From assembly GCA_036504735.1 (NCBI GenBank), contig DASXUQ010000009.1, positions 103,204 through 167,203 of the forward strand: 64,000 nucleotides of DNA, given 5' to 3'. The translations under genes were made by a program, and so were the position numbers. The notes below the pieces were generated by a model that was given only the letters and a program-made list of their open reading frames with translations, ran no database searches and was not told where the DNA came from. This document shows, piece after piece, positions 8,547 to 63,939 of the stretch. The DNA comes from a bacterium. GTDB lineage: Bacteria > Electryoneota > RPQS01. Position 1 is the stretch's first letter; each line of letters begins with the position of its first letter.

Positions 8547-8597
8547 TGATCGGTTCCGACTCGCACGCTTCGGCGCGACGATGTCCAGCAGATCATC

Positions 8598-11500: not shown

Positions 11501-12596
11501 CTTCATCACTGAGCAGGGAGGGGCCAACGAACGTGACGTTGTTCATCAGCAGGGGGATGCCGTTTTGGTACTCCACGTGTACGCTGCCGTTCACCCACCG
11601 GAAGATGCTGGTCAGACCATTCTGATAAAACATCTGTGCATGGTCCGGTGCATTCGGATCTTCATCCGTAACAGGAGCGCCGAAGTTTATCCAGCCATGA
11701 TGGTTGATCCAGTGATCCCAGAACCCCTCTTTCAAGAGGCAGACATTCCAATCCCCGACCTTGCGAATCAGTGCGGAGTACGGCAGGGTGAAATTGTTGT
11801 TGCAGCCTGAGAAGTCCTGCATGTACATGCCGTTCTGTTCATGCACGAAACGGCCCCCGGGACCATTATTCCAGGGAAAACCTAAATTATGGCTCGGATT
11901 GGCTGATTGCAATGCCTGATACTTGCTCAAAAAAGCCTGAGATATTCCATCGTTATGCCAGCCGTCCGAAAACTGCCCGACCGGGTTGGCCGCTTCGTAA
12001 TGCGTGTTCGCCGCCGGATGGTCTCGTATGAAATCCGAAGGGTCCCACCAATCGCTCAAGACACAATCGTTGGGGGAGTAACCCTCCCAAGCCCATCCAC
12101 CGTCACAGGGCATGTGATTAGCATGATCGTAGGAATCTCGATGGATACCGAAGTGAAAATGTGGATCATAGCCGCCGTTATGCTCTCGATCCGCAACATA
12201 GCCGATTACGTCTCCGCGACGGACTTGGTTAAATGGAGCGGTGGTTTTGACTTCCAAGGCAGGAGCACACAGGTGGGCATAGAGCGACACCACATGTTCC
12301 CCGGATGAAAGCAGGTGCTCGATCAAGACAATGCTGCCGTAACTATGTCCGGATTCCGCCATGCGAACGATGCCGTCAGCACACGCGTACACAGGACTTC
12401 TCACGGATAAAGCATAGTCTTCGGCCAAATGGTATTCACCGGGCGTGAGGCACTCCCCGAACCTGCCAAACTCGCACATCTGACGAGGATTACCCGTATA
12501 CGGGCTCTGAAATCCGTCTGCCACCGGAACCGTCTGTGACCAGGCACCGCTGCGGGCGGCAAGCAGGAGCATGAAAATCAGGAAGCATCGCGTCAT
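8598..12596 (-). CDS. Secreted M23 peptidase-PKD-beta-propeller repeat protein
   Basis: 1332 aa with a signal peptide (MTRCFLIFMLLLAARSGAWSQ). M23 motifs (HLAEDY..., HFHFGIH). A PKD domain (WEWYFGDGSSS...HTY). Multiple YGG..D..GY beta-propeller-type repeats. Confidence 0.6.
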   Translation of the reverse strand: MTRCFLIFMLLLAARSGAWSQTVPVADGFQSPYTGNPRQMCEFGRFGECLTPGEYHLAEDYALSVRSPVYACADGIVRMAESGHSYGSIVLIEHLLSSGEHVVSLYAHLCAPALEVKTTAPFNQVRRGDVIGYVADREHNGGYDPHFHFGIHRDSYDHANHMPCDGGWAWEGYSPNDCVLSDWWDPSDFIRDHPAANTHYEAANPVGQFSDGWHNDGISQAFLSKYQALQSANPSHNLGFPWNNGPGGRFVHEQNGMYMQDFSGCNNNFTLPYSALIRKVGDWNVCLLKEGFWDHWINHHGWINFGAPVTDEDPNAPDHAQMFYQNGLTSIFRWVNGSVHVEYQNGIPLLMNNVTFVGPSLLSDEDGVYCSGVPVTGFGTPVELVNGSIYSGFYAVINGAQVTIPTFTVTGDMTIDVGAPAPQADFSANPTSGSLPLNVQFTDLSTGSPISWEWYFGDGSSSMAQNPSHTYTVAGYYTVTLVAHNVAGWDQEQKEHLIAVNQPGVHVTGPTMSQVGACGGLAVQWTTTGYMESMRIELNRSYPEGQWETLAYNAPNNGFFAWLVTGPPTQRARFKVTSNYDPTIWDVSDADLTIIAPAVISPNGGEVLVARNGTYHVTWDPAWESSTPVRIELNRSYPDGQWEPIELQTPNDGETWWYVTGPATSHARIRIIGGEGSCINDWSDSDFTILAPELELTSPAPGDTVMAAIPYDVAWTTHNLPGDVRITLNYFSNFGGGGTQVLQECTPNDGSEPCIIRIPWGYEIPLTASASIEIRSLYYPGIYTVSDSDFYFTTPAISIEQPWTNTVWNAGQVHSVTWSSWYADCPVMIELNRSYPGGPWEVLTPAAPNTGNFAWVVTPPVSNHARVRISTTSYPLLTDTTDGDFTITDIQPPGVLWTRTFGSSNYDAAQSADETADNGYVVAGRSTLPGNSDEDMWLIRLNSAGDTLWSRRYNGPPYSEAAFAVQQTTDGGFILIGYWGGSRPYFVKTNAAGDMMWNRVMRGPCGVAWAGIQTDDGGYLGAGQSQSGDAELVRVSAAGDSLWSRFYGGGGMDVANAVLQTIGGDYVFAGTTGSFGAGAEDMYVVKTSGAGDVLWTRTYGGASYDRAYGITETHDGGYVIVGETFSFGDMWKMFVVRTNSDGDTLWMRSYPPPMFRRGNSVKQLFDGSFLVGGNGLNGDMILAKLDQNGDTLWVRTYGGPSDEGLNAVLQTRDGDFLLTGYTQSYGAGYYDYYVLKIAADSPCSDWTPASPPITATIAGDGLTLHWDPVVRSIGDCPEVIQQYEVLGSSSIDGPYLLLGRVPGTQTGFAESLQAVPENLRFYRVKAVVSGSH

Positions 12597-50639: not shown

Positions 50640-50936
50640 ATGACGACTACAAAGACGAAAGACTTCGGACTGGCTGCTATGCTGGTCGCGAAGAACACAA
50701 AGATGACCGGCTATACAACCGATGAATTAGGAAATCTGTGGTTTGAGTTTGCCACAGATGAGAACGTTGCGGCACTGGAAGAAGGCTTTTACCGCAACAC
50801 CGTGGATGTTCGCATCCAAGATTTTCTGGCAGCACAAAAGATGCTGAAAGCCTTGATCTTTGAAACTAAGAGAAATATGTATGAAAATAGAATCAGAAGA
50901 TTTAACCCAACCAACACTAACACAATTGCCGTCTAA
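50640..50936 (+). CDS. Hypothetical protein (98 aa)
   Basis: ORF starting 13 nt after the previous stop, with RBS GGAAACTAAGATG. Confidence 0.4.
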   Translation: MTTTKTKDFGLAAMLVAKNTKMTGYTTDELGNLWFEFATDENVAALEEGFYRNTVDVRIQDFLAAQKMLKALIFETKRNMYENRIRRFNPTNTNTIAV

Positions 50937-53466
50937 GAACGGCACTCGTCCAGAAAGCTCAGTCCGCGAAAACGGATTCACCATTTCGCTGTCAATTTCG
51001 AAGGACAAGATTCGCACGAAGGCACAGGGAGAAACAGTCACCGAGTACATCGAGTGCGATCTGTTATCAAGCGACAAGGAAGACATTCAGGAACTCTTCA
51101 CAACAAGAAACTACTCTACCAACGTTTGGGATGGCCCAAGGCATGGCGTAAACTACGTAGGCATGACCGGCGTATCGCTGGATTTTGACAGCGGCATGAC
51201 TATTGAAGAAGCAAAAGCAGCATTTGCTGACTACAACTACGTTCTTCATACCAGTACTTCCCATCAAGTGGACAAAGATGGATTTGTCGCGGACAGATTT
51301 CGCGTGATTTTGCCTTTCATGCCTAACGGTCTGCGCTTCACGACGCAGGCTGACTGCAAGAGAGTCTATCAGAAGCTGCTTACAAAGTATCCGCAAATGG
51401 ATGCCGCGTGCACCGACGCGGGAAGACAGTTCTTTCCTTTCTGTGATGACAAGGGCGCCAAGTTCGAGCTTTACACAAATGACACCGGTTGTTACTTCGA
51501 TGTGGACATCAGCGATATGCCGGATGTCTTCGTACCAGAAGCTTTTGAAGAACGGGAATGGGACGGACATCTTCGGCCACGAAACGAGCTTGAACGCATT
51601 CTGAAGTTCTGCCCTTTCGTGAAGTGGATGGACCACCATATTGGCAATCCAAAGACAGAGATGCATGAACCACTAAGATTTGCGTTGATTTCGAATCTAT
51701 GCTGGTATGAAGGCGGGCGCGAGGAGATTCATCGCATCCTCAGCCGTGATTGTAGGCCGGGGAAGTACTATCCAGGTTTGGTGGATGAGAAGATCGACCG
51801 AATTCTCGAAGCCTACAATCCCCAGACTTACGAATTGATTGTAAGGTTGGGATGGCCGGGACCGGCGCTATGCAAACCACTATCGCCTTCCGGATGGGGG
51901 CGGGTAGGCACGAAGGCCGCACGGGAATTCGTGCAGATTGACTGGGATGACAACGTGATAGTGGACTTGAACGGTGCGTGGGTCGTTGTTGGTCTGGAAG
52001 ATCTGAAGGCAGACCTACTACCTGTGAACAAGAAGATGGCGGCGATCTGCCCCGTCTGTGGGGCCGAAGCTGTAGTGAAGCTCGACACGTTCCACTTTGC
52101 GAACATATGGTGCGAACAATGCCAGAAGGCATTCTATGAAGCCGCGCTTTCGCCTGGGATGTTCACTTACAAGAACAAACTCCTACGAGTAGAACGACGC
52201 GCCGGTCAGTTCATCAGCATGGAAGTCCTGGAGGAAGAATCTTTCCGTACAGGAGATGAATTCAAGTTCGCTAAGAAGAAGCTTCTGACGGATCCAAACA
52301 GAAGATTTCTGGATGATGGCTTTCAGATCCGAAGAATCGGAAGCGCGGACTTCGGGAAGCTGGTGTATGAATTCCGCATGCAGGAAAACGCATTACTGTT
52401 CAAATACCCAGCCATTCCGGTCAGAATCAAAGACAACGCCTTCATCAACAACTTTCTTGACCCGATGTTCGGCCAGTATGTAGACTTCATCAAGGACTGG
52501 ATGGCGGTGTTCTGCTACACAAACTATCAGACCCTTCCGGTGATCGTACTTACCAGCGAACGCAGTTGCGGAAAGGGCACTTTTGCTAACATGCTATCGG
52601 CGATCTTTCCGACATTGGTCGGACAGTGGGACGGTGTGAAAGAGTCATTCAACGATCAGTACAAGAACAAGCTGCTGTTCGTGGACGAAAACCCGAACGC
52701 CGAGAAACCTATGCAGTACACGGAAATCAAGAAGATCACGGGCAACCGCCTGCTGCGTATAAACGAGAAGTATACACCGGCCTATTATGCCCCCAATAAC
52801 ATCAATATTATTATTGCAACTAATGATCCACGGCCCATGTTCTTGAAGGCCAGGGAAGAACCGAAATCTGAAAACACTAACAACTTCTTTATTCACCGCG
52901 TGCCGGATGTTAATCCGGACAGGATTGACAAGACCCTGGGCAACAAATTGGAGGACCGAATCGGCTACTATGTCCGAACCGAACTGAAGGAGCGTTACCA
53001 GAGGCTCCTGGCGGAAGGCAATACGAATAACCGTTACACTCTGGCAGCACCAATCACTCCGCTTGCACGTGATCTGTTCGCTTCAAGCAAATCAACGGTT
53101 GAAATCGAAGCAGATGAACTTGCGCGCTATCTTGTGTGCGGCGTGGAAATGCCAGATCCCTATGGAGACGGTTATTCTTCGAAGATCAAGTTCACGGCAA
53201 CCGAGTACAACGGCGCCAAGTACGTGCAGCTTGCAGAGATCAGACTGCTGATCTCCCGGCTACGCTTCAAGGGAAGCTCGAATCCGAAGGCATACATCAG
53301 TGTTCTGCAGGATTTGGGCGTGCTATCATTTGACGCATCGGCACGCAGCAACGTACGACATCTTGGCTACAAGATTCTGCGTGATCAAAAGTACTATGAT
53401 CCACAGCAGCCTTCAATCACCGGCACGCCAGGCGTCAGCAGCAATGGAAATGTGGTTTTCGGGTGA
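50860..53466 (+). CDS. Bifunctional primase-polymerase / P4-type (SF3, D5-like) replicative helicase; N-terminal start uncertain
   Basis: 868 aa. C-terminal P4-family NTPase motifs (Walker A SERSCGKGTF, Walker B LLFVDEN). N-terminal prim-pol-like region. Confidence 0.7.
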   Translation: MKLREICMKIESEDLTQPTLTQLPSKNGTRPESSVRENGFTISLSISKDKIRTKAQGETVTEYIECDLLSSDKEDIQELFTTRNYSTNVWDGPRHGVNYVGMTGVSLDFDSGMTIEEAKAAFADYNYVLHTSTSHQVDKDGFVADRFRVILPFMPNGLRFTTQADCKRVYQKLLTKYPQMDAACTDAGRQFFPFCDDKGAKFELYTNDTGCYFDVDISDMPDVFVPEAFEEREWDGHLRPRNELERILKFCPFVKWMDHHIGNPKTEMHEPLRFALISNLCWYEGGREEIHRILSRDCRPGKYYPGLVDEKIDRILEAYNPQTYELIVRLGWPGPALCKPLSPSGWGRVGTKAAREFVQIDWDDNVIVDLNGAWVVVGLEDLKADLLPVNKKMAAICPVCGAEAVVKLDTFHFANIWCEQCQKAFYEAALSPGMFTYKNKLLRVERRAGQFISMEVLEEESFRTGDEFKFAKKKLLTDPNRRFLDDGFQIRRIGSADFGKLVYEFRMQENALLFKYPAIPVRIKDNAFINNFLDPMFGQYVDFIKDWMAVFCYTNYQTLPVIVLTSERSCGKGTFANMLSAIFPTLVGQWDGVKESFNDQYKNKLLFVDENPNAEKPMQYTEIKKITGNRLLRINEKYTPAYYAPNNINIIIATNDPRPMFLKAREEPKSENTNNFFIHRVPDVNPDRIDKTLGNKLEDRIGYYVRTELKERYQRLLAEGNTNNRYTLAAPITPLARDLFASSKSTVEIEADELARYLVCGVEMPDPYGDGYSSKIKFTATEYNGAKYVQLAEIRLLISRLRFKGSSNPKAYISVLQDLGVLSFDASARSNVRHLGYKILRDQKYYDPQQPSITGTPGVSSNGNVVFG

Positions 53467-54416: not shown

Positions 54417-56696
54417 CTATTCACGCTGTCCTGCTGAGCCGTGCTGTTGCAGCGCAGATCCCGCTTCGACATCCGCTGTCACCTGATAGAAATACGCTGG
54501 CTGAGTATTCAGGATGAAGGCGTGCACGTACGAGTTGGTTGTAGCGTATCCGAAGGGCACAAACGGACCGGAGGCCGTCATCGAGCCATAAATCACGTAG
54601 ATTACGTTTTCGACCGGCTGTCCGCTGATCGAGTGGGTAACAGGCGCCCAATCCAGTCTAATTCCGTTCGTAGGGCCTTTCTGAACAACCAGGCTGTCGA
54701 CTGAAGGCAAAATCACCTGGGCCTCGCCAAACAGCGGAATGCGAATGATGCTATCTATTTGCTGAGTGGCCATTATCACAATCGTATCTGGGAAACTGCC
54801 TGCACGCGTTGGAGTAAACGTCACGGGCAACTGATGCCCTGAATACGGCGCGACTACACCGTCGAAACCGTTGGTGCCAACAGTAAAGGCAGTCGAGGCG
54901 CAGCTCACTCCGGTGACTGGGATTGCCTGTGCTGTCGGATTGAACATCGTCAGTTGCATGGTTGAGTCAACGCCCAGGTCAATAAGCCCGAAATTGAGCG
55001 CGACGGGACTGACCATCAATGTGGTATGGATGAAGGGAACAGCCCCCATATCAGCCCGAGTTGAATCCGGACCACGTGGAGAATTCGGATCTCCGGTATC
55101 AATGCAAGGAGAGGCTGACTGCAAGTGGAAGTTGCCGTTTACTGGATCAATCAGCAACGGATCAGCATCGATGTTCCCAAGGCCTTGGTAGTTTCCGGCG
55201 ACATCCGACCATGACACGGTTACCGCCGAATTCCAGAGGTGGATTTCTGGGGAAGTACTGGCTTGGTTATTCCACAGAATGCAGTTACGAAGCTCAGCAC
55301 TGCTGTTGCCAGTCAGGCAAAGCGCGCCTCCTTCCGCGCTCGTGAGGTTCTCGCTGAAGGTACAGTTGACAAACAGCCCACCACAGCCCTCTTCAAACTG
55401 TGCTCCCGCTCCACACCAAACCGAGCTATTACCGGCTATCACGCAGTGATCAAACGTTGGAACTGCGTACAGATAATCGTGCACGCCGCCGCCATATCCA
55501 TAAGTTGCTGCGTTGTTCAGAATCCGGCAGCGCTGAAAGAGCGGCATCGAATACAAACGACAAATAATTCCGCCGCCGAAAGCCGCCGAATTACCGAAGA
55601 TATCGCAGTCACGAATGGTCGGAGAGGAGTGATCGATGCACACAATTCCACCGCCATCACTGTCGGCCACGTTGTTCCGGATGCTCGAGTACTCGATTAA
55701 TGGAGAACACTGCGATAAGAGGATGCCTCCGGCGCTGTTGTCATTATCTCCTCCGCTTGCATGACCATTCTCGACCACGCAGTAGGCCAGATGCCCATCA
55801 GCGCTCGTACCCTGAAAGCGAATTCCCCACCACTTCAATTCTTCAGCCGGATAAGCTCGCGTGAACACAATCGAGTCCTGCTCCGTTCCAGTCGCCTGGA
55901 GGTTGCCGTACACATTGAATTTGTAGTGCCCGGTAAACAACACACGTACGCCGGGTCTGATTTCAAGAGTCTGACCCAAGGGCACGGTTATCTCACACGT
56001 AACATAGTATGGCGATCCTGTCGAGTCCCAGACGCCGGAAACATCACCGCATACATTGGTGCCTTGAAGGGGATCAACGCGAAAGTAGTCGAAGTCTGCG
56101 GGAATATTCGGGCCATCTGGTGGCCAATTGTAAGCATCGAAGCCATACTTTATCGGTGCCTCTGAGCCTGAAGTTCTATGCCATGTGGCCATATAGGTCC
56201 ACGCGAGAGAGTCGGGAGATGCAAACGCTGAATAGGCGGTGCCCCGTTTTTCGATTCGAAGGAAACAAGGATTCCACGATTGCCCTATTGCAGCGGTTTC
56301 GAGTTGCCCGTCAGTCCAGAAGTGAGTTCGAATTCCTCCATCCGGTTGACGCACAACATTGATATTGTCCGTGCCATTGAACCACACATAGAGACCGGCT
56401 CCACCGTATGCCCCAGTCTCTATCTCAAGTTTCGTCTCAATTCTGAAGCAACTATCCGTGATCACCCGTTGCAAATAATTCTCACCGCCGACATTGCTGG
56501 TCCACATCCTTAGCCACCATGGCCTTTCTGTCAGACTCCACCCGCTCGTGTCTTCATTGATCCAAGTCCAACAGGAATCCAGCGACGGGGAATCAAAATT
56601 CTCGGCAAACGGAAGCGAAGCAGGTGAGCAGATCTGGGCAAAGCAGATTACGGTCGCCGTCAGTAACGCTGAAGAAAGTACTATCAGGCTTCTCAT
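54417..56696 (-). CDS. Secreted right-handed beta-helix (pectin-lyase-fold) repeat protein
   Basis: 759 aa with a signal peptide. Repeated GG..NS/GN.A.. beta-helix turns (NSAAFGGGIIC, NAATYGYGGGV, NSSVWCGAGA). Confidence 0.6.
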   Translation of the reverse strand: MRSLIVLSSALLTATVICFAQICSPASLPFAENFDSPSLDSCWTWINEDTSGWSLTERPWWLRMWTSNVGGENYLQRVITDSCFRIETKLEIETGAYGGAGLYVWFNGTDNINVVRQPDGGIRTHFWTDGQLETAAIGQSWNPCFLRIEKRGTAYSAFASPDSLAWTYMATWHRTSGSEAPIKYGFDAYNWPPDGPNIPADFDYFRVDPLQGTNVCGDVSGVWDSTGSPYYVTCEITVPLGQTLEIRPGVRVLFTGHYKFNVYGNLQATGTEQDSIVFTRAYPAEELKWWGIRFQGTSADGHLAYCVVENGHASGGDNDNSAGGILLSQCSPLIEYSSIRNNVADSDGGGIVCIDHSSPTIRDCDIFGNSAAFGGGIICRLYSMPLFQRCRILNNAATYGYGGGVHDYLYAVPTFDHCVIAGNSSVWCGAGAQFEEGCGGLFVNCTFSENLTSAEGGALCLTGNSSAELRNCILWNNQASTSPEIHLWNSAVTVSWSDVAGNYQGLGNIDADPLLIDPVNGNFHLQSASPCIDTGDPNSPRGPDSTRADMGAVPFIHTTLMVSPVALNFGLIDLGVDSTMQLTMFNPTAQAIPVTGVSCASTAFTVGTNGFDGVVAPYSGHQLPVTFTPTRAGSFPDTIVIMATQQIDSIIRIPLFGEAQVILPSVDSLVVQKGPTNGIRLDWAPVTHSISGQPVENVIYVIYGSMTASGPFVPFGYATTNSYVHAFILNTQPAYFYQVTADVEAGSALQQHGSAGQRE

Positions 56697-57347: not shown

Positions 57348-57653
57348 TCAGTAGGAATTCTCATGTATCACCTCCTTCCCGATTCGCTTCTTATGACGTT
57401 GGCGAAGGAGTCTGTTTAGCCTCCGTTCGCTTTCGATAACCTTAACCTCGCCGGCATCTTCAATGGTCACGCGGATAATGCGGTGCACTTCGAGTTTTGG
57501 AGATCTTTCGCGAAGGCTTCGCTCGTCATATTCGACATCGCCCGCAAGTATCCGTTGGAGGCTATCTTCGATAGTGAGAGCCTCAACACGATACTGAACC
57601 TCGTACTCCCACCGCTCTACGGTTTCGACTTCGAATGTAGGCATAGGCATCAC
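57348..57653 (-). CDS. Hypothetical protein (101 aa) co-transcribed downstream of the E1 gene
   Basis: Overlaps the E1 stop by 4 nt. Confidence 0.35.
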   Translation of the reverse strand: MMPMPTFEVETVERWEYEVQYRVEALTIEDSLQRILAGDVEYDERSLRERSPKLEVHRIIRVTIEDAGEVKVIESERRLNRLLRQRHKKRIGKEVIHENSY

Positions 57654-58306
57654 CCCATCATTGTGTATGTCGCCAAGTCAACAACGACTCGACCAGGAAC
57701 CGCTTCGTCATTGACATAGCGCTTAACCATGTTGCAGATCACCGCAACGGCCATAAGTGGCGTGTAGCACACAGAACGCGCTGTACAAGGTTCGGAGAGT
57801 GAATCGCCATCGGTGTGCAGCGAATCCCAATAGCGGCTTCTTTCTTCGCGAACCTGCGGGTGAAGAGTGTAGACGATGAGAGTGTCGAGTCCCATGCGTG
57901 CATCCAAGTACAGTTTGACCGTCGGCTGACCGCGAACGGCACGAAAGATCGTATTTCGTGAAACCATCGAATCCACTGCCGAGATGACTACCTCGGTTAG
58001 TGGCTGATCGTCGTACCTAGCGGCAATTGCATTTGGCGTATGCCCACCGAACTGCTGCATTACCTCGGACAAGGCCGTGCACTTCAGCTTGCCAATGTCT
58101 TCGTCACGGTACATCTGATTCGACCAGTTGTGATCTTCCACTGAGTCTGGGTCATAGATCGTCAGGCCACAGGAGCCCATCTTCCCGAGATACACAGCGG
58201 AAGCACTTCCTATTGCACCGGCACCGATTAGGGTGATGCCGAGGCTGGTGAGACGGCTCATGTTGACCGCGTCTTGCTGGCGGAGGAACCGAAGATCGTT
58301 GTTCAT
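57650..58306 (-). CDS. ThiF/MoeB-type E1-like ubiquitin-activating enzyme (BilD-like)
   Basis: 218 aa. Rossmann GxGxxG (IGAGAIGSASAVYLGKMG) and ThiF-like core. Confidence 0.7.
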   Translation of the reverse strand: MNNDLRFLRQQDAVNMSRLTSLGITLIGAGAIGSASAVYLGKMGSCGLTIYDPDSVEDHNWSNQMYRDEDIGKLKCTALSEVMQQFGGHTPNAIAARYDDQPLTEVVISAVDSMVSRNTIFRAVRGQPTVKLYLDARMGLDTLIVYTLHPQVREERSRYWDSLHTDGDSLSEPCTARSVCYTPLMAVAVICNMVKRYVNDEAVPGRVVVDLATYTMMG

Positions 58307-59031
58307 TAGAAGGGCCTTTCTTCACGGTCAAGATCCTCCGGATAGTACCAATCGAGTTCTTCCTGCAGCTCTTCCATTGTCAGCGCTCCACGATCATGAG
58401 CAGCCCGTAGATCTTGAACATGATCCTGAGTATCACGAGCCAATTGCCGATGCCCGTTCACCCCGTGAGTATCTTCCAATACCTTGGCCTTGAACTCCGT
58501 CAGACATTGCTCGGCAAGCCCATCAATCAACGGGTAGTGAACATCCCAGACAATGTCCGTCAGATACAGATGACAGGGGTGGTATTGATCGAGTCGCATC
58601 ATCGTATCGCGCTTGCGATTCACGACCAACGACAACAAATAGTCGCCATTTGCCAGTCCCGAAATACAGTCATCATCGGTCCCGCTCCAGAAGACCGACA
58701 TGGATCCGTGACTATGCACCCAACATCTCAACTTGCGACTGTCAATACCCTTGTTCTCCAGATCGAGCATGAGTTGGGAGACCGCGACGACATCCATCGT
58801 CGTCTCGTCCGCGGAGCATTGCTGCTTCACCAAGAATAGATCCGTCACGAGAAGAGCGCTGACAGCACCCGAATCGGCATCTCTGATCTCCTCGACGGTA
58901 CCGAGACAGGAGACTTCACCCTTGGCGATGTCAACCCAGTTCCAAAACTTCGCCATTGCGACAGCTTCCACCTGAACACGAATGCCCAATTGCACCGGCT
59001 CACGCCGCGACTTGTTCTGCCACTGATTCAT
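58306..59031 (-). CDS. JAB/MPN (JAMM) metalloprotease / deubiquitinase-like (BilC-like)
   Basis: 241 aa. Exact JAMM motif HSHGSMSVFWSGTDD (H-x-H-x7-S-x2-D). Confidence 0.7.
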   Translation of the reverse strand: MNQWQNKSRREPVQLGIRVQVEAVAMAKFWNWVDIAKGEVSCLGTVEEIRDADSGAVSALLVTDLFLVKQQCSADETTMDVVAVSQLMLDLENKGIDSRKLRCWVHSHGSMSVFWSGTDDDCISGLANGDYLLSLVVNRKRDTMMRLDQYHPCHLYLTDIVWDVHYPLIDGLAEQCLTEFKAKVLEDTHGVNGHRQLARDTQDHVQDLRAAHDRGALTMEELQEELDWYYPEDLDREERPF

Positions 59032-60139
59032 GGCTTACCTCCTCAGTTTCTTCTTTGGGTCTGTTGGGGCAGTCTTCCTCATCGTGATCAACATACTCGT
59101 TACAATGATCGCACCACCAACATGAGTCGCACTCGCTTATCGTGTGACCATAGTCGTCACAATACGAGCAGTACGGTTCATCATCATCCTCGGGCTCTTC
59201 GTAATCAGGGTCCCAACGTTCGATCTTCTGATAGGGGTCACTGGAATTGTAGGAGCTCAGGAACTGATGCACTAACTGAAACAGACCGAAGAGATCGAGC
59301 TCACCTGCAAGACGACTCACGAGATGGCCGCAATTACCCCAACACACATTGCTTCGTTCATCAGTCACATGCGGGTGGACATACCCATTGATATTCGTTC
59401 CACCACCAATGAGTACTTTTCCCTGTCGAAGGTTAACCTCGACTTCGTAAGGGTCGAAGCGATAATCGTAGCCATCGTAGTTGATGATGATCTCATGCGT
59501 AATGCCAACCACGGATTCATCCTCGATCCTGAAACTCGCATACGTGCTCGGCACCAGCTTCATGAGATCGACGAATGAGTGGTTAGCACGATTACGAATC
59601 CATTCCGGCGACTTCTGAAACATCTCCAGCAGATGCCGATCCGTTTCCAACTTTCGGGAGAGTTGCATGACCTGCAAGGACAAGCGTTCAAGCTCGTAGC
59701 TATCTTCTCGGATGGATGCTTGGAGTTCACGCTTGCGATCAGACACACACCCAGCGATGCTCTCGATAAGGGCATCCTTCTGTTGATGACGGTACTGTCG
59801 GCAGATCTTCGGCAGATGCTGATCAATCAGCTTTCGAACAAATGACAGCGCAGACGGGTTCTTTGGCCAGATCAGCAGAACTAGCCATGCCTTACCGACC
59901 CGTGCCACGGGTACGTCGTCACAGGTAATCAGATCGCCCAGCAGGAACTTGGCAAAACCCGGCTCGTGAAGCACCTGCATGTCCGCAATCGTCTTCGAAG
60001 TTGAGCCGTTGCCAGGAAAGGCGACAGCTAGACCTTCACGACCCCAGGATTCTGCTTGCCAAGAATCGGTCAGGTCGGTAATGGGCACATGGTAATTCTG
60101 CGCATAGAAGCGCAATAGATCCTGAATCTGTTGAATCAT
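59000..60139 (-). CDS. E2/UBC-like conjugating enzyme with C-terminal Cys-rich zinc ribbon (BilB-like)
   Basis: 379 aa. HPHVTDERSNVCWG resembles the UBC HPN...C active site. C-terminal C..C..C..H..C cluster. Confidence 0.5.
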   Translation of the reverse strand: MIQQIQDLLRFYAQNYHVPITDLTDSWQAESWGREGLAVAFPGNGSTSKTIADMQVLHEPGFAKFLLGDLITCDDVPVARVGKAWLVLLIWPKNPSALSFVRKLIDQHLPKICRQYRHQQKDALIESIAGCVSDRKRELQASIREDSYELERLSLQVMQLSRKLETDRHLLEMFQKSPEWIRNRANHSFVDLMKLVPSTYASFRIEDESVVGITHEIIINYDGYDYRFDPYEVEVNLRQGKVLIGGGTNINGYVHPHVTDERSNVCWGNCGHLVSRLAGELDLFGLFQLVHQFLSSYNSSDPYQKIERWDPDYEEPEDDDEPYCSYCDDYGHTISECDSCWWCDHCNEYVDHDEEDCPNRPKEETEEVSHESVAEQVAA

Positions 60140-60239
60140 AGATTGTTCCTCCGGAGGAAGAAGAGCCCCGGCAGATCACTCTACCGAGGCTCTCCTCATA
60201 TCTGATAGCGGTGTAGGAAGGACCGCCAGCAGATCCTCC

Positions 60240-60452
60240 TTAGATGCCACCCTTCACCTGGGGCACTAGGGTGAGAACCGCCCCTTCCTGCAGCACATCA
60301 CTGTCGAACGCCGGGCTGCCGTTCACATGCCGAGTATACGAACTGTCCTTGGGGAACCCGGCCTGGGAGATCGCCTGCTCTACCGTGGTGCCGTCCGAGA
60401 TGTCTATCTCTTTGGCCGAACGTCCTAAACACAAAACCTTGCACTTCATGAG
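60240..60452 (-). CDS. Ubiquitin-like beta-grasp protein ending in Gly-Gly (ThiS/MoaD/BilA-like); start taken at the ATG encoding MKCKV
   Basis: About 70 aa (MKCKVLCLG...LTLVPQVKGGI) with a C-terminal GG plus one residue. First gene of the operon. The track ORF extends to a TTG at 60515. Confidence 0.55.
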   Translation of the reverse strand, partial: LMKCKVLCLGRSAKEIDISDGTTVEQAISQAGFPKDSSYTRHVNGSPAFDSDVLQEGAVLTLVPQVKGGI

Positions 60453-60699
60453 TCGCTCCTTGCGAGGGTTGATCAACTTTGCCGCCCAATTTCTATGGGG
60501 CGAACCTTGGTTCAACCTCTTATGCCAGAAAGCGAAATCCCTGTTCTAAGCCGGGCCAATCACAGGCAAGAACTGTAAATTGGAGCCCATGCGTCTAATT
60601 ACATGACTTTGTCTCAAGGGCGATGTAAGTATTGAAAATCATCTGTGGAATTATTACATTTACATTAACAGATCATCACACTCATCAAGAGTACCTACC

Positions 60700-62496
60700 A
60701 TGCGATTTCGGCAGGTCGAGACCGTAAAACGGACCACAAATGATTCTCTTCTGCCCGTCAAGGTTACTTACGAAGACACGACGCCAGTAGTCGAAGAAGA
60801 CGAAGAAGAGGAAGTAGAATACTCTTCGGGAATCGTTGACCGGGCCAGGCAGGTGAAAGATGCCATCGCCGAGAGACTGTTTGGGTCATCCTACGATGAC
60901 GAGGAAGAGGAGGACGATGAAGACGAGGGGGAAGAAGAATCGTGCTTCGATGTGCGCTTCTATGACAGAGCGTCTCCTGAACCAAAAAGTCGTAAGAAGA
61001 GTGATGATGAGGTCTTCTGCTTCGACGGATATGTGTTGACGCCGGGTCTGGCGCGGGCAATCAAGGCTGTGGCACCGCATGCCATCTTTAACGAGCCGAT
61101 ATTGATTGAAGGAGCGGAGGGAACCGGGAAAGATACGCTCGCTCATTCAATTCATCAATGTTCGGGTTTGTCCGGTCCCTTCATAACCGTAGATTGCGGA
61201 AGTTATCGTCCAGACATGTTTGAGGATGAATTGCACGGGACGCGAACTCGAGTCGGACTTATTGATCAGGCAGAGGGCGGAGTGCTCTACCTCAAAGACA
61301 TCGATAAACTGACCGTGCCGATGCAGGAGATCCTGCTCGCGGAACTTGAATCCCTGTTGGTTTCCGATGACGAGGAAGAGGAAGTGGACGACGAGGACGA
61401 AGAATCTGAAGAAGAAGCTCAGGATGAGAGCGAGGAAGAACCAACGACTCAACTGATTGCTTGTTGCAGTCCGAGGATCAAAACACTATTGTCCAGAAGA
61501 AGATTCAGCCAAGAACTGTATACGAGTCTCAAGGTTGGCTATGCCGCGCTTCCTTCACTCCTGGACCACCCCAACGCAATCTTACCTCTGTTGAAGCTCT
61601 TTGTTAATGCCGCAGAATCGAAACGATCTGGGACGACGAAGACGAGGAAGGCGCCCACTGCCATAGACCAATACTCTTATGCGAAGGACGTCAGGGCGAC
61701 CTTGACTCGCTTGAAGTGGCCGGGCAATTACGATGACTTGATCCGATGCGCCGAACGAGTAAGACAGGAGGTTACCGAGAAGCCGGGCCCGATCACCGGA
61801 GCCATGATAAAGCGGTGCCTCACCGGGCCGACAAAGTCACAAGCGAAGAAGGGAACTCGGGCCGTCGAAAGGTCCACCGCGAGCCCTACGCCTTCTTCAA
61901 CTGCAAAGCCCGGCCTCGTTGGCCACTCTGAAGCTCAAGTCTCGGAATCGCCCACAAGCATTGGTAAGAAACCGCCTATAAACCAGCTCATTAAGACCTC
62001 TCATCCGATGATTGTAATCGTGCCGGACAAGCAGCTTGGCCCTGTGAGCGGCGTCAGCATGTCTCGCGCCTGGACACAGCAGCACGAGACTGAGTATCAA
62101 CAACTGAGGTTAGACGACCGAGAGTGGGAAAATACCGTTCGGGCTGTCGAGCAGGCAGCGCGGGCTCTGTGCAACTCCATGTTTAGCGGAAAGTCTGGGG
62201 TCTTGAAGCGGGCACTCAAAGACAATTGGAAAGGTGAGTTCAAACGCGTTTTGATTGCACGATGGGTCATCTTAGCCATGGAGAAGCATGAGTGTGACCA
62301 GGCGACGAGGCTGCACAGGTTAGGATGGCTTGAAGAACCTAAACCGGGAAAAGACTACCAGAAGAAGTGTGAAAGCTACCGGCAGTATTGCTACCAGCTC
62401 GGATTCGTTCAACCGAAACAAGGAAACGTGCTCGAGAGAAGCTTCGTATGGCCAGAAGAACAGGCCTGGCTGGACGACTATATACCACCGCGCTAA
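60700..62496 (+). CDS. bEBP-like AAA+ ATPase (sigma54-interaction-domain homolog) lacking the GAFTGA motif, with long poly-acidic tracts
   Basis: 598 aa. Walker A EGAEGTGKD and Walker B GGVLYLKDID resemble sigma54 activators. Where GAFTGA is expected it reads GTRTRVG. Glu/Asp runs at residues about 30-45, 65-80 and 215-245. No clear C-terminal HTH. Confidence 0.5.
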   Translation: MRFRQVETVKRTTNDSLLPVKVTYEDTTPVVEEDEEEEVEYSSGIVDRARQVKDAIAERLFGSSYDDEEEEDDEDEGEEESCFDVRFYDRASPEPKSRKKSDDEVFCFDGYVLTPGLARAIKAVAPHAIFNEPILIEGAEGTGKDTLAHSIHQCSGLSGPFITVDCGSYRPDMFEDELHGTRTRVGLIDQAEGGVLYLKDIDKLTVPMQEILLAELESLLVSDDEEEEVDDEDEESEEEAQDESEEEPTTQLIACCSPRIKTLLSRRRFSQELYTSLKVGYAALPSLLDHPNAILPLLKLFVNAAESKRSGTTKTRKAPTAIDQYSYAKDVRATLTRLKWPGNYDDLIRCAERVRQEVTEKPGPITGAMIKRCLTGPTKSQAKKGTRAVERSTASPTPSSTAKPGLVGHSEAQVSESPTSIGKKPPINQLIKTSHPMIVIVPDKQLGPVSGVSMSRAWTQQHETEYQQLRLDDREWENTVRAVEQAARALCNSMFSGKSGVLKRALKDNWKGEFKRVLIARWVILAMEKHECDQATRLHRLGWLEEPKPGKDYQKKCESYRQYCYQLGFVQPKQGNVLERSFVWPEEQAWLDDYIPPR

Positions 62497-62793: not shown

Positions 62794-63327
62794 TTGCATC
62801 CGCAGAAAGGTCACAGACTCATGGCCAGCGCGAACACGCAGGTAGGATTACTCAAGGAGTGTACTGCCCGTCCGAAGCATGCCAAGAAGGTGAAGTACCC
62901 ACGGGTCGGTCGCCGAACCTTGAATCACGTCAGGATGGGATTCAGCATCGCGGGGCTGGACAGAGAAGTCACCCGCTCGGATATCGATGACCAAATCGAA
63001 TTATCAGACACTCCGGTATCGAATCCACACCGGAACGAGGATGTTCTGATTTCCCTGCTGGACGGGGAGCAACCGGAAGACGATAAGTACTTCGATTTGC
63101 TGGAGCGCCGTCTGGAGTTCCTGCGATGGGCCATCAGCGAGCTCACAGAGCGGCAGGCCATAGCCCTCGGATACATGTTGCAGGGTGCATCCGAGTATGA
63201 GGGGGCGGAAGCGATGAATGTCAAGCAACCTACGTTCCACGAGACACTTTACGGCAAGGATGGCAAGGGGGGCGTAATCAAGAAGTTGCGAAAGCTGGTG
63301 GCGAAATACCCTATCACTCTTTCTTGA
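62794..63327 (+). CDS. Sigma-70 region-4 / LuxR-type HTH regulator (start possibly at 62821)
   Basis: C-terminal LTERQAIALGYMLQGASEYEGAEAMNVKQPTFHE resembles the sigma-70 r4 HTH. Confidence 0.45.
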   Translation: MHPQKGHRLMASANTQVGLLKECTARPKHAKKVKYPRVGRRTLNHVRMGFSIAGLDREVTRSDIDDQIELSDTPVSNPHRNEDVLISLLDGEQPEDDKYFDLLERRLEFLRWAISELTERQAIALGYMLQGASEYEGAEAMNVKQPTFHETLYGKDGKGGVIKKLRKLVAKYPITLS

Positions 63328-63480
63328 TGTGATGGGGTTGCAGAACGCTCTTTGAAATATCCAAATATCCGACCGGGACGGATTCCCGGATCTGCTTCTG
63401 GAAGTGTGAACGTCTCACCATCAGCCCATCGATGGTGTACCGGAAGGTCAACCGATTTGACTATCAGAAAGAAGGTTGAT

Positions 63481-63939
63481 ATGGATACCAACCAGATCAT
63501 CCCTTTGCGCAGGGCGCTCGAGGAGTTCGGCATCCGCGACTTCGAGACCATGCGGAAAGCCGCCAAGAAGTTTGGTGCGCTCATCACCGTGGCCGGCATC
63601 GAGTACATCGATAAGGCACGGTTCGAGAGTGGACTCCAGACCGAACTTCAGGCGAAGGTCGATCAAGCGGCTCGCCGTGGTAGCGTCAAGGCTACCAGCG
63701 GTCGTCAACTGGGCTTGCTCAAGGCCCGGATCGAACTCGCCCCGTCGCGGATTGCGGCCAAGGAAGGTGCAATTGTCGCGGCACGTAAAAAGGTTGAAGA
63801 AGCTCAGAACAAGTACGAGAAGACTCGTGCGAAGAAAGCCCTGACGGAGTTGGAAGCAGGCTTGAAACGTCTGCAGGACAACCTCGCCAAAGACCAGGCT
63901 GAGCTGGATCGCCTGCTGAACGAAGGATCTGCGGAGTAA
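63481..63939 (+). CDS. Hypothetical coiled-coil protein (start taken at the ATG encoding MDTNQIIPL)
   Basis: C-terminal heptad-rich lysine/glutamate region. RBS AAGGTTGATATG. Confidence 0.4.
   Translation: MDTNQIIPLRRALEEFGIRDFETMRKAAKKFGALITVAGIEYIDKARFESGLQTELQAKVDQAARRGSVKATSGRQLGLLKARIELAPSRIAAKEGAIVAARKKVEEAQNKYEKTRAKKALTELEAGLKRLQDNLAKDQAELDRLLNEGSAE

What the first reader, a model, noticed from the sequence alone, without database searches (positions are those of the whole stretch)
57348..60515. Bil-like ubiquitin-like conjugation operon (Ubl-E2-JAB-E1) plus an extra 101-aa gene
The minus-strand operon encodes four components. A roughly 70-aa beta-grasp protein ends ...KGG plus one residue (Ubl with a diglycine that a JAB could expose). 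An E2-like protein (HPHVTDERSNVCWG) carries a C-terminal Cys-rich zinc ribbon. A JAMM protease has a perfect H-x-H-x7-S-x2-D motif. A ThiF-type E1 follows. This matches the bacterial ISG15-like/Bil antiphage systems (the E1-E2-JAB-Ubl '6E' operons of earlier comparative genomics) in both composition and gene order. The unusual parts are the zinc-ribbon extension on the E2 and the co-transcribed 101-aa protein (57348-57653, overlapping by 4 nt), which could be an accessory or target-recognition factor.
Basis: partly seen in the sequence, partly recalled or inferred. Interest (0 to 1): 0.55.

Follow-up and report, generated by a model that had tools for sequence, protein, structure and literature searches.

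The report
Unclassified bacterial ubiquitin-like conjugation operon
The window carries a real four-gene ubiquitin-like tagging cassette (tag, E2, trimming protease, miniature E1) that resembles the antiviral Bil systems in layout but belongs to a separate lineage with no family model, known only from uncultured bacteria and usually sitting next to mobile-element genes.

Summary
On the minus strand lie a 69-aa Ubl ending VKGG-I, a 379-aa E2-like protein, a JAMM peptidase, a 218-aa ThiF-type E1 and a small fifth gene.

- **Ubl:** its profile matches archaeal SAMP2, with the GG aligned to SAMP2's C-terminus.

It is not a Bil member. The E1 is a single adenylation domain without IAD or CYS domains. 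The E2 has an upstream HPH, a 175-aa N-terminal domain plus long helix, and tandem CCHC zinc knuckles rather than a zinc ribbon. "6E" is Bub, not Bil.

The same gene order recurs in every fetched locus that reaches far enough. The E2 family spans about 1,900 50%-identity clusters and has no Pfam, NCBIfam, PADLOC or PHROG model. Distant members keep the operon.

Neighbours are integrases or serine recombinases, excisionase-like HTH_17 genes, primases, an NtrC-type AAA+ protein and defence genes. The source MAG holds four copies. The 101-aa gene occurs in only 4 loci, so it is a lineage-specific accessory.

Best reading: a new variant of bacterial ubiquitination-like pathways, with defence or mobile-element function unresolved.

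The parts
60240..60449 (-). Ubl precursor, 69 aa, SAMP2/ThiS-type beta-grasp ending VPQVKGG-I
   Evidence: There is an ATG with an AAGGAG ribosome-binding site. Pfam ThiS E 2e-4 and NCBIfam ThiS 3.6e-6. The family profile hits P. furiosus SAMP2 (5lda_B) at E 1.2e-7, with GG aligned to SAMP2's C-terminus. VPQVKGG is invariant and the last residue varies among I, A, N and C.
59000..60139 (-). E2-like protein, 379 aa. N-terminal alpha/beta domain (1-92), roughly 80-residue helix (95-174), UBC-fold domain (about 178-310) with HPH255-257 and Cys266, then two CCHC zinc knuckles (324-357) and an acidic tail.
58306..59031 (-). JAMM/MPN+ metallopeptidase, 241 aa, with a helical C-terminal extension and an acidic tail ending in PF
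57650..58306 (-). Miniature E1, 218 aa, a single ThiF/MoeB-type adenylation domain with invariant Cys174 (PCTAR)
   Evidence: Pfam ThiF 53 bits. The profile hits UBA5, PaaA, ThiF, UBA1, MccB and Cap2. R9-Q10, GxGxxG, D52, D54, N60, Q64, K75, D112, R117 and C174 are invariant. The nearest annotated relative is PRTRC ThiF (hhalign probability 98%).
57348..57653 (-). Small accessory gene, 101 aa from GTG and probably 98 aa from the ATG at 57644. Lineage-restricted, no recognisable domain.
   Evidence: Only 5 database homologues. Homologues occur in L001, L020 and L023, always just after the E1. No family hit.
60518..60528 (-). Conserved upstream motif CTGGCATAAGA, a candidate extended -10 promoter or half-operator
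   Evidence: It lies 67-82 nt upstream of the Ubl start in 20 of 21 distinct loci.
60482..60503 (-). Conserved leader hairpin between the motif and the ribosome-binding site
   Evidence: RNAalifold predicts 9 pairs, and 7 of them have compensatory changes across 14 loci.
60700..62496 (+). Divergently transcribed NtrC-family AAA+ protein, 598 aa, with no GAFTGA loop and acidic inserts. Candidate regulator.
   Evidence: Pfam Sigma54_activat 5.2e-19. A Sigma54_activat-type AAA+ gene occupies the same divergent position in L009, L013, L024 and L025. L016 matches only the C-terminal part.
54417..56696 (-). Secreted beta-helix protein, 759 aa, immediately downstream on the same strand. A recurrent but variable neighbour.
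   Evidence: Pfam Beta_helix and GH43_C2. Large beta-helix, FG-GAP or BNR proteins, many with the T9SS Por_Secre_tail domain, follow the operon in most loci.

Best explanation
This is a complete, self-contained ubiquitin-like protein-conjugation cassette. Its lineage is distinct from Bil, Bub, CBASS-Cap2, 6A-MBL and PRTRC.

**Proposed mechanism.** Only the folds, motifs and their conservation are shown here. Every reaction step below is inferred.
1. The 69-aa pro-Ubl (ending VKGG-I) is trimmed by the JAMM peptidase to expose Gly68. This is inferred by analogy with BilC and BilA.
2. The 218-aa E1 probably acts as a ThiF/UBA5-like homodimer. It adenylates Gly68 and passes the Ubl to Cys174 in its short crossover region.
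3. The Ubl is then transferred to Cys266 of the E2 domain, which carries an HPN-like HPH.
4. The E2's own appendages stand in for a separate E3, since no E3 gene is present. These are the N-terminal domain, the long and probably dimerising helix, and the two zinc knuckles. They would select the targets, whose lysines receive the Ubl.
5. The JAMM enzyme can also reverse the conjugation.

**Regulation.** Expression is probably driven from the conserved TGGCATAAGA element and modulated by the leader hairpin. The divergent AAA+ protein may also take part.

**Biological role.** The cassette sits in integrase- and primase-flanked islands together with defence systems. Its role is most likely in conflict between the host or mobile element and invading phages. 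I favour Bil-like anti-phage defence only slightly over an element-serving function.
For: **Components**
- Ubl: SAMP2 hit at E 1.2e-7 with GG aligned to the mature C-terminus. GG is invariant and the last residue varies. More distant Ubls end GG plus 1 or 8 residues.
- E1: Pfam ThiF. The adenylation residues and Cys174 are invariant, also in distant systems. The best PDB hit is UBA5, a minimal E1 that carries its Cys in the crossover loop.

**Synteny**
- The four-gene order recurs in all fetched loci that extend far enough.
- It is retained in two relatives whose E2s share only about 18-23% identity with other distant family members in the alignment (L026 and L030).
- The genes overlap or abut.
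- The Ubl is the most conserved component, at 69-91% identity.

**Context**
- CBASS, TIR and SIR2-HerA genes are neighbours.
- The window has a defence island of about 35 kb.
- Integrases, serine recombinases, HTH_17 genes and primases lie nearby.
Against: - No biochemical data exist for any member.
- The Arg of the E1 motif SNLxRQ is replaced by Asn in the close family (Asn or Gly in the crAss-like phage E1), so adenylation chemistry could be altered.
- The position of Cys174 in a crossover loop is inferred from spacing, not from a model.
- The target and any phenotype are unknown. The defence assignment rests on neighbourhood only.
- Four diverged copies in one MAG and constant adjacency to recombinase and replication genes fit an element backbone function at least as well as defence cargo.
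Confidence: 0.68

Rival explanations
1. The cassette is a backbone function of an integrative mobile element or phage rather than host defence. It would tag host or element proteins to promote the element's replication, excision or establishment, or to neutralise host defences. Candidate targets are replication and repair factors reached through the SSB-tip-like tail of the JAB.
For: - A tyrosine integrase (often with an HTH_17 excisionase-like gene) or a large serine recombinase lies within a few kb upstream in most loci. Primase or MCM-like genes are nearby.
- Two unrelated recombinase types accompany the same operon.
- There are four diverged copies in the source MAG and four in another MAG.
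- A distant member sits in a phage-like contig.
- crAss-like phages carry adjacent JAB and E1 relatives inside their replication module.
- Foldseek finds uncharacterised viral proteins of similar size.
- The JAB tail resembles the SSB C-terminal tip.
Against: - Loci were selected for having the operon, so I did not test whether the same element backbones exist without it.
- Defence systems also cluster next to integrases.
- L018 and L019 show housekeeping genes directly upstream with no recombinase.
- No E2-like match exists in 50,697 GenBank phages or 72,556 plasmids.
- The SSB-tip resemblance is a motif-level impression only.
Confidence: 0.3
2. It is a divergent member of the Bil (bacterial ISG15-like) family, effectively a "type III Bil". 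It would work exactly like BilABCD by tagging phage structural proteins.
For: - The gene order Ubl-E2-JAB-E1 is the same.
- The Ubl has a conserved Gly followed by a one-residue tail, as in E. aridi BilA.
- The operon lies in a defence island.
Against: - The E1 lacks the IAD (PF14459), the CYS insertion and the zinc site that define BilD.
- The E2 uses an upstream HPH instead of the Cys plus downstream His of BilB, and it carries unrelated N- and C-terminal modules.
- The Ubl and JAB are closest to archaeal SAMP2 and JAMM1, not to BilA and BilC.
- No PDB Bil chain appears among the sequence hits.
Confidence: 0.07
3. It is a sulfur-carrier or peptide-modification module. The small protein would be thiocarboxylated or adenylated by the ThiF-like enzyme for cofactor, thionucleoside or peptide-antibiotic synthesis (ThiS/MoaD/TtuB type, or MccB/PaaA type), not conjugated to proteins.
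For: - The Ubl hits ThiS models.
- The E1 hits ThiF, MoeB, MccB and PaaA.
- The E1 is as small as ThiF.
Against: - No rhodanese, ThiG/H/C, MoaE/A, TtuA or biosynthetic partner occurs in any of the locus tables.
- An E2-fold protein with an invariant HPH..Cys and a JAMM peptidase are strictly co-inherited.
- The Ubl carries a removable residue after GG.
Confidence: 0.04

Closest known systems
Type I/II BilABCD (bacterial ISG15-like; type II = "6C/CEHH" operons)
   Same: - Four separate genes in the order Ubl-E2-JAB-E1.
- The Ubl Gly is followed by a short tail that a JAB must remove.
- Thioester-type Cys in the E2.
- Defence-island context.
   Different: - BilD is a pseudo-dimeric E1 with IAD, AAD and a mobile CYS domain. 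Here the E1 is a 218-aa single adenylation domain.
- BilB has Cys plus a downstream His. Here there is an upstream HPH, a 175-aa N-terminal extension and zinc knuckles.
- Type I BilA has two beta-grasp domains. Here there is one, of SAMP2 type.
PRTRC cassette (ParB-related, ThiF-related; operon type "6d" of Iyer et al. 2006)
   Same: - A small ThiF-type E1, which is the nearest annotated relative (hhalign probability 98%).
- A small Ubl, an E2-like protein and a JAB.
- Carried on mobile elements. ParB is adjacent in L005 and L006.
   Different: - All NCBIfam PRTRC scores are far below their cut-offs.
- The E2-like protein and the JAB show no similarity to PRTRC protein B.
- By the description in Iyer et al. 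2006 (operon type 6d, my assignment to PRTRC), the E2 there lacks the upstream His; here the upstream His is invariant.
- PRTRC ThiF lacks the PCTAR Cys.
- PRTRC proteins D, E and F are absent.
Archaeal sampylation (SAMP2, UbaA, JAMM1)
   Same: The Ubl and the JAB are each most similar to the P. furiosus SAMP2/JAMM1 pair. The E1 is a small MoeB/ThiF-type enzyme.
   Different: - Sampylation is E2-independent. Here a dedicated E2 is always present.
- SAMPs end in a free GG. Here the Ubl is a precursor.
- The setting is a bacterial mobile element.
Bub ("6E"/DUF6527) operons
   Same: They encode Ubl, E2, E1 and peptidase activities in a bacterial conflict context.
   Different: - Bub uses fused proteins (Ubl-E2, JAB-E1 or E2-E1).
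- Bub has a DUF6527 serine protease and works through oxyester intermediates.
- None of these features is present here.
Non-canonical eukaryotic E1 UBA5 (and ATG7)
   Same: A minimal adenylation-domain E1 whose candidate catalytic Cys lies in the crossover region rather than in a separate CYS domain. UBA5 is the best PDB sequence hit for the E1 profile.
   Different: There is no UIS or UFD-type E2-binding tail. The match covers only the Rossmann half. The Arg of SNLxRQ is replaced by Asn.

Membership tests
Bil (BilABCD, types I and II) | Four separate genes in the order Ubl-E2-JAB(DUB)-E1 | tested here: met
   The Bil gene order is taken from PMC10557695.
Bil (BilABCD, types I and II) | [quoted passage not shown] | tested here: not met
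   The E1 is 218 aa. Only PF00899 matches, at residues 13-90, and PF14459 does not. The alignment shows a single domain. The feature is defined.
Bil (BilABCD, types I and II) | E2 (BilB) with a catalytic Cys and a conserved downstream His (CEHH in type II) | tested here: not met
   The invariant His residues lie 9-11 residues upstream of Cys266 (HPH255-257). No invariant His occurs within about 20 residues downstream; His291 is only nearly invariant.
Bil (BilABCD, types I and II) | Ubl with a conserved C-terminal Gly followed by a non-conserved tail that the DUB removes | tested here: met
   The sequence pattern is met. Cleavage itself is not testable here.
Bil (BilABCD, types I and II) | Protects against phage by conjugating the Ubl to phage proteins | not testable with these tools
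   Needs phage challenge experiments and conjugate mass spectrometry.
Bub (6E / DUF6527) | DUF6527 serine protease (BubE) plus fused Ubl-E2, JAB-E1 or E2-E1 proteins | tested here: not met
   No such domain and no such fusion occurs in the operon or its neighbours.
PRTRC (6d) | Proteins reach the NCBIfam cut-offs for PRTRC_ThiF, PRTRC_A, B, C and the rest | tested here: not met
   ThiF scores 39.5 bits against 144.75. PRTRC_A scores 17.1 against 101.8. The Ubl and the E2 have no hits. hhalign against PRTRC protein B gives probability below 2%.
Type II CBASS Cap2/Cap3 | An E2-E1 fusion acting on a CD-NTase, with a Cap3 JAB | tested here: not met
   E1 and E2 are separate genes, a dedicated Ubl is present and there is no CD-NTase in the operon. 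The E1 hits Cap2 models only over the Rossmann part.
UBC/E2 superfamily | UBC fold with a catalytic Cys about 8-10 residues after an HPN-type motif | tested here: met
   [not shown]
JAMM/MPN+ metallopeptidases | E...H-x-H-x7-S-x2-D zinc site on an MPN fold | tested here: met
   [not shown]
E1-like (ThiF/MoeB/UBA) superfamily | Rossmann-type adenylation domain with GxGxxG, DxD, Lys and Asp | tested here: met
   Pfam ThiF 53 bits against a cut-off of 28.1. The conserved residues are listed. One departure: the Arg of SNLxRQ is Asn.
ThiS/MoaD sulfur-carrier modules | Genomic linkage to thiazole, molybdopterin or thiouridine synthesis genes or to a rhodanese | tested here: not met
   None occurs in any locus gene table.
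Archaeal SAMP system | SAMP-type Ubl, UbaA E1 and JAMM, with no E2 | tested here: not met
   The Ubl resembles SAMP2 and the JAB resembles JAMM1. However, an E2 is always present, and NCBIfam UbaA scores 25.6 bits against 450.

The most novel reading that the evidence does not exclude
A widespread, so far unnamed ubiquitination machine borne by mobile elements and phages. It would have a miniature E1 and an E2 that carries its own target-recognition modules, acting as a built-in E3 (coiled coil plus zinc knuckles). The element would use it offensively to tag host replication, repair or defence proteins. The JAB would dock through a mimic of the SSB C-terminal tip. This would be the first case of mobile elements, rather than hosts, wielding Ubl conjugation in bacteria.
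Probability: 0.2. Interest if true: 0.85.

Novelty: new variant of a known kind. Interest (0 to 1): 0.62.

Why it matters
Bacterial ubiquitination-like pathways (CBASS-Cap2, Bil I/II, Bub) have only recently been shown to conjugate proteins, and they inform ideas on where eukaryotic ubiquitination came from. This cassette would add a further lineage with an unusual mix of features:
- an archaeal-type SAMP2/JAMM1 pair;
- the smallest kind of E1;
- an E2 that already has the eukaryote-like HPN-type motif and carries its own putative substrate-binding modules.

The E2 family is large, at about 1,900 clusters at 50% identity. No Pfam, NCBIfam, PADLOC or PHROG model matches it, so current defence-system and annotation pipelines would miss it. 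Its constant association with integrases and primases raises a testable question: is Ubl conjugation used by mobile elements rather than only against them?

Tried and rejected
- **Sigma-54 promoter:** I looked for one upstream of the Ubl gene, because the divergent neighbour has a Sigma54_activat domain. None was found in 24 loci, and the protein lacks GAFTGA by my reading of its sequence.
- **Rfam:** the operon region gave only sub-threshold chance hits.
- **Promoter and terminator scan:** counts were no better than shuffled sequence.
- **PRTRC protein B:** comparing it with the E2-like and JAB families showed no similarity.
- **tblastn searches:** the E2-like protein found nothing in GenBank phages or plasmids, and a distant member found nothing in GenBank phages. 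The JAB against plasmids gave only a spurious hit.
- **IMG/VR scans:** two distant E2-like proteins found nothing.
- **Pattern-based locus searches:** alignments A11 and A12 of distant members were too divergent to use.
- Foldseek against afdb50 was not available.
- **crAss-like phage locus:** it has JAB-like and E1 relatives but no HPH-type E2 and no obvious Ubl.


Full report
**What is there**

The minus strand between 57348 and 60515 carries five tightly packed ORFs.

- **Ubl.** The first ORF is listed as 91 aa from a TTG. An ATG at 60449 preceded by AAGGAG gives a 69-aa protein, which is the length called on other contigs. It ends VPQVKGG-I.
- **E2-like protein.** After a 100-nt gap comes a 379-aa protein (59000-60139).
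- **JAB.** A 241-aa protein (58306-59031) overlaps the E2-like gene by 32 nt.
- **E1.** A 218-aa protein (57650-58306) overlaps the JAB gene by 1 nt.
- **Fifth gene.** A 101-aa ORF (57348-57653) overlaps the E1 stop by 4 nt. Its homologues begin at MPTFE, so the real start is probably the ATG at 57644.

**Identity of the four core proteins**

*E1.* This is the only protein that a family library recognises above threshold, with Pfam ThiF at 53 bits.

*Ubl.* It sits just below the ThiS threshold. A profile of five orthologues matches P. furiosus SAMP2 over its full length at E 1.2e-7, and the GG aligns with SAMP2's mature C-terminus. VPQVKGG is invariant while the last residue varies among I, A, N and C. 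More distant orthologues end GG plus 1 or GG plus 8 residues.

*E2-like protein.* The 379-aa protein matches no Pfam, NCBIfam, PADLOC or PHROG model.
- An AlphaFold2 model built on 66 homologues is confident, with pLDDT 85.7.
- It shows an N-terminal alpha/beta domain (1-92), a helix of about 80 residues (95-174), a helix plus beta-meander plus helices module (178-295), and a Cys-rich tail.
- The family profile aligns to a Plasmodium E2 with HPH255-257 on HPN and Cys266 on the catalytic Cys.

- The E2 tail reads C324-x2-C327-x4-H332-x4-C337, then C340-x2-C343-x2-C346-x5-H352-x4-C357, and all of these residues are (nearly) invariant. The first unit has the exact retroviral-type CCHC knuckle spacing. 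The second is Cx2Cx5Hx4C with one spare Cys. This is not a four-Cys ribbon. The model confidence there is only 63-77, so the fold remains open.
- The E1 keeps the RxxRQ N-terminus, GxGxxG, DxD, Asn60, Gln64, Lys75, Asp112 and Arg117. It has Asn in place of the Arg of SNLxRQ, and an invariant Cys174 in PCTAR.
- That Cys is also present in distant systems and in a crAss-like phage E1, but not in PRTRC ThiF.
- The best PDB matches of the E1 profile are UBA5, PaaA, ThiF, UBA1, MccB and Cap2. The protein is therefore a generic, minimal E1 with no specific affiliation.

**Distribution and synteny**

- The E2-like protein has 85 close homologues and the JAB has 148. All come from metagenomes or MAGs labelled Calditrichaeota, KSB1 or simply "bacterium".
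- A scan of 185,579 species representatives found only 14 loci, all in MAGs.
- In every fetched locus that extends far enough, Ubl, E2, JAB and E1 occur in the same order.
- The Ubl is the most conserved component, at 69-91% identity. The E2 is the least conserved, at 42-81%.
- A full HMM search of 1.84 billion cluster representatives found 1,928 E2-like clusters at E ≤ 1e-3 and 388 at E ≤ 1e-10.
- Forty-four distant members keep HPH…C-x-G invariant, have long Cys-rich acidic tails, and have no Pfam family.
- Four of these were looked up. L026 and L030 have ThiS-like, E2-like, JAB and ThiF genes in the same order. In L028 the E2-like gene is followed by a JAB cut at the contig end. L029 is too short to judge.
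- The cassette is therefore a widespread unit that none of the four libraries searched recognises, not a local curiosity.
- No E2-like match exists in 50,697 GenBank phages or 72,556 plasmids.

**Genomic context**

- A DUF5906 primase-helicase lies at 50860-53466.
- Around the operon in other loci, the upstream side carries a tyrosine integrase in at least 11 loci, with an HTH_17 excisionase-like gene beside it in the three loci that have Pfam-annotated gene calls. In 4 loci it carries a large serine recombinase instead.
- A divergently transcribed NtrC-family AAA+ protein recurs directly upstream: window 60700-62496, L009, L013, L024 and L025.
- Primases (DUF5906, AEP-TOTE) or an MCM-like gene are nearby.
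- CBASS, TIR, SIR2-HerA and ParB genes are occasional neighbours.
- Downstream on the same strand, most loci have large secreted beta-helix, FG-GAP or BNR proteins, many with T9SS sorting domains. These belong to different families in different loci. The window's 759-aa beta-helix protein is one of them.
- The MAG that the window comes from carries four diverged copies of the cassette: VGL38_08155, _09550, _01200 and _05980. Another MAG also has four.

**The 101-aa gene**

It has five database homologues. Among the fetched loci it occurs only in L001, L020 and L023, always just after the E1. Three of the four occurrences are in one MAG. Other loci have unrelated small ORFs at that position. 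It is a lineage-restricted accessory and not part of the conserved machine. No domain was recognised, and I could not model it.

**Comparison with known systems**

Iyer et al. (2006) defined operon types 6a-6e. Later work renamed them:
- 6c is Type II Bil.
- 6e is Bub/DUF6527.
- By my reading, 6b corresponds to type II CBASS and 6d to the PRTRC cassettes.

*Bil.* BilD is an E1 of more than 500 aa with IAD (PF14459), AAD and CYS domains, and BilB has a Cys plus a downstream His. Both features were tested here and are not met. Gene order and the Gly-plus-tail Ubl are shared with Bil.

*Bub.* Bub uses fusion proteins, a DUF6527 protease and oxyester chemistry. None of these is present here.

*PRTRC.* Its ThiF is the nearest annotated E1. 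However, NCBIfam scores are far below the cut-offs, and the other components are unrelated.

*Archaeal sampylation.* The Ubl and JAB pair is closest to SAMP2 and JAMM1, but sampylation has no E2.

The cassette thus works like Bil but is not a member of Bil, Bub, CBASS, PRTRC or the SAMP system. I rate it a new variant of a known kind.

Full-text searches of the held literature found no description of it. That does not exclude one in journals outside the library.

**Mechanism and role**

The proposed steps are as follows.
1. The JAMM peptidase trims pro-Ubl.
2. The minimal E1, probably a homodimer, adenylates Gly68.
3. The Ubl forms a thioester on Cys174.
4. It is transferred to E2 Cys266.
5. 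It is conjugated to targets chosen by the E2's own N-terminal domain, coiled coil and zinc knuckles, because no E3 gene is present.
6. The JAMM peptidase can reverse the conjugation.

Only the folds, motifs and their conservation are shown here. Every reaction step is inferred from the named families.

For the biological role, the neighbourhood supports a conflict function. It does not separate host defence from an element-serving function. The constant adjacency to recombinase and replication genes under two recombinase types points towards the element-serving reading. So do the multiple diverged copies per genome, a distant member in a phage-like contig, and the JAB plus E1 relatives in the replication module of crAss-like phages. 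The co-resident defence systems and the Bil precedent point towards defence.

**Side observations**

- An 11-nt motif, CTGGCATAAGA, lies 67-82 nt upstream of the Ubl start in 20 of 21 loci. In about nine loci an inverted half-site sits just upstream of it. It reads as an extended -10 element or an operator.
- The motif is followed by a 9-bp leader hairpin with compensatory changes in 7 pairs, often followed by a U-run.
- In 98 of 104 full-length homologues the JAB ends in an acidic run plus an aromatic residue, and 85 of them end in PF. This resembles the SSB C-terminal tip.

Noticed in passing
window 60518-60528 (-), and 67-82 nt upstream of the Ubl start in L001-L025: The motif CTGGCATAAGA is conserved in 20 of 21 distinct loci. 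In about nine loci an inverted half-site, TCTTATGCC, lies 7-8 nt upstream and makes a palindrome. It could be an extended -10 promoter, an operator, or both. No sigma-54 -24/-12 promoter was found, even though the divergent neighbour is an NtrC-type AAA+ protein.
   Followed up: partly
window 60482-60503 (-): The 5' leader of the Ubl gene has a 9-bp hairpin, and 7 of the 9 pairs show compensatory changes across 14 loci. In many loci a U-rich run follows it, so it looks like a leader terminator or attenuator. No Rfam family matches.
   Followed up: partly
window 58306-58335 (-), the C-terminus of the JAB: The JAB ends in an acidic run plus PF (…DLDREERPF). 98 of 104 full-length homologues end in an acidic run plus an aromatic residue, and 85 of them end in PF. 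The motif resembles the SSB C-terminal tip (DFDDDIPF) that docks replication and repair proteins.
   Followed up: partly
window 54417-56696 (-); L001 13482-15074; L003 12889-18537; L023 12377-20085; L024 11735-17745; L025 11687-19503: Large secreted beta-helix, FG-GAP or BNR proteins follow the operon on the same strand in most loci. Many carry the T9SS Por_Secre_tail domain. They belong to different families in different loci. Whether this is a functional link, variable cargo or an insertion-site preference is unexplained.
   Followed up: partly
window 60700-62496 (+), 62794-63327 (+), 63352-63939 (+): Three genes run divergently from the operon and recur between it and an integrase in several related loci. 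They are an NtrC-family AAA+ protein with long acidic inserts and no GAFTGA, a 177-aa protein with a faint sigma-factor region-4 hit, and a 195-aa coiled-coil protein. The window ends before any integrase on this side.
   Followed up: partly
[not shown]
   Followed up: partly
L021 (Bacteroides phage PhiCrAssBcn22) 2259-4600: crAss-like phages (Kehishuvirus) encode a 367-aa ThiF-like protein annotated as a thiamine biosynthesis protein. It matches this E1 family at E 7e-28. The gene just upstream matches the JAB family at E 2.8e-5. Both sit in the replication module, and no HPH-type E2 or obvious Ubl lies nearby.
   Followed up: partly
L028 (ENA contig k141_4352997) 1-11203: A distant E2-like member (586 aa), followed by a JAB, sits at the end of a long same-strand array of small unannotated genes with a DNA-ligase-like gene. 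The contig looks like a phage genome fragment. The 75-aa gene before the E2 does not look like the Ubl.
   Followed up: no
window 57650-58306 (-), residue 63 of the E1: The Arg of the E1 motif SNLxRQ is Asn in every member of the close family, and Asn or Gly in distant relatives and the crAss-like phage E1. PRTRC ThiF keeps the Arg. The consequence for ATP binding is unknown.
   Followed up: no
window 1737-12596 (-): Two very large ORFs (2269 aa and 1332 aa) occupy the higher-GC left end of the window. The second carries M23 peptidase and PKD domains. GC content drops from about 0.57 to about 0.50 near 13 kb, which may mark the edge of the island region.
   Followed up: no
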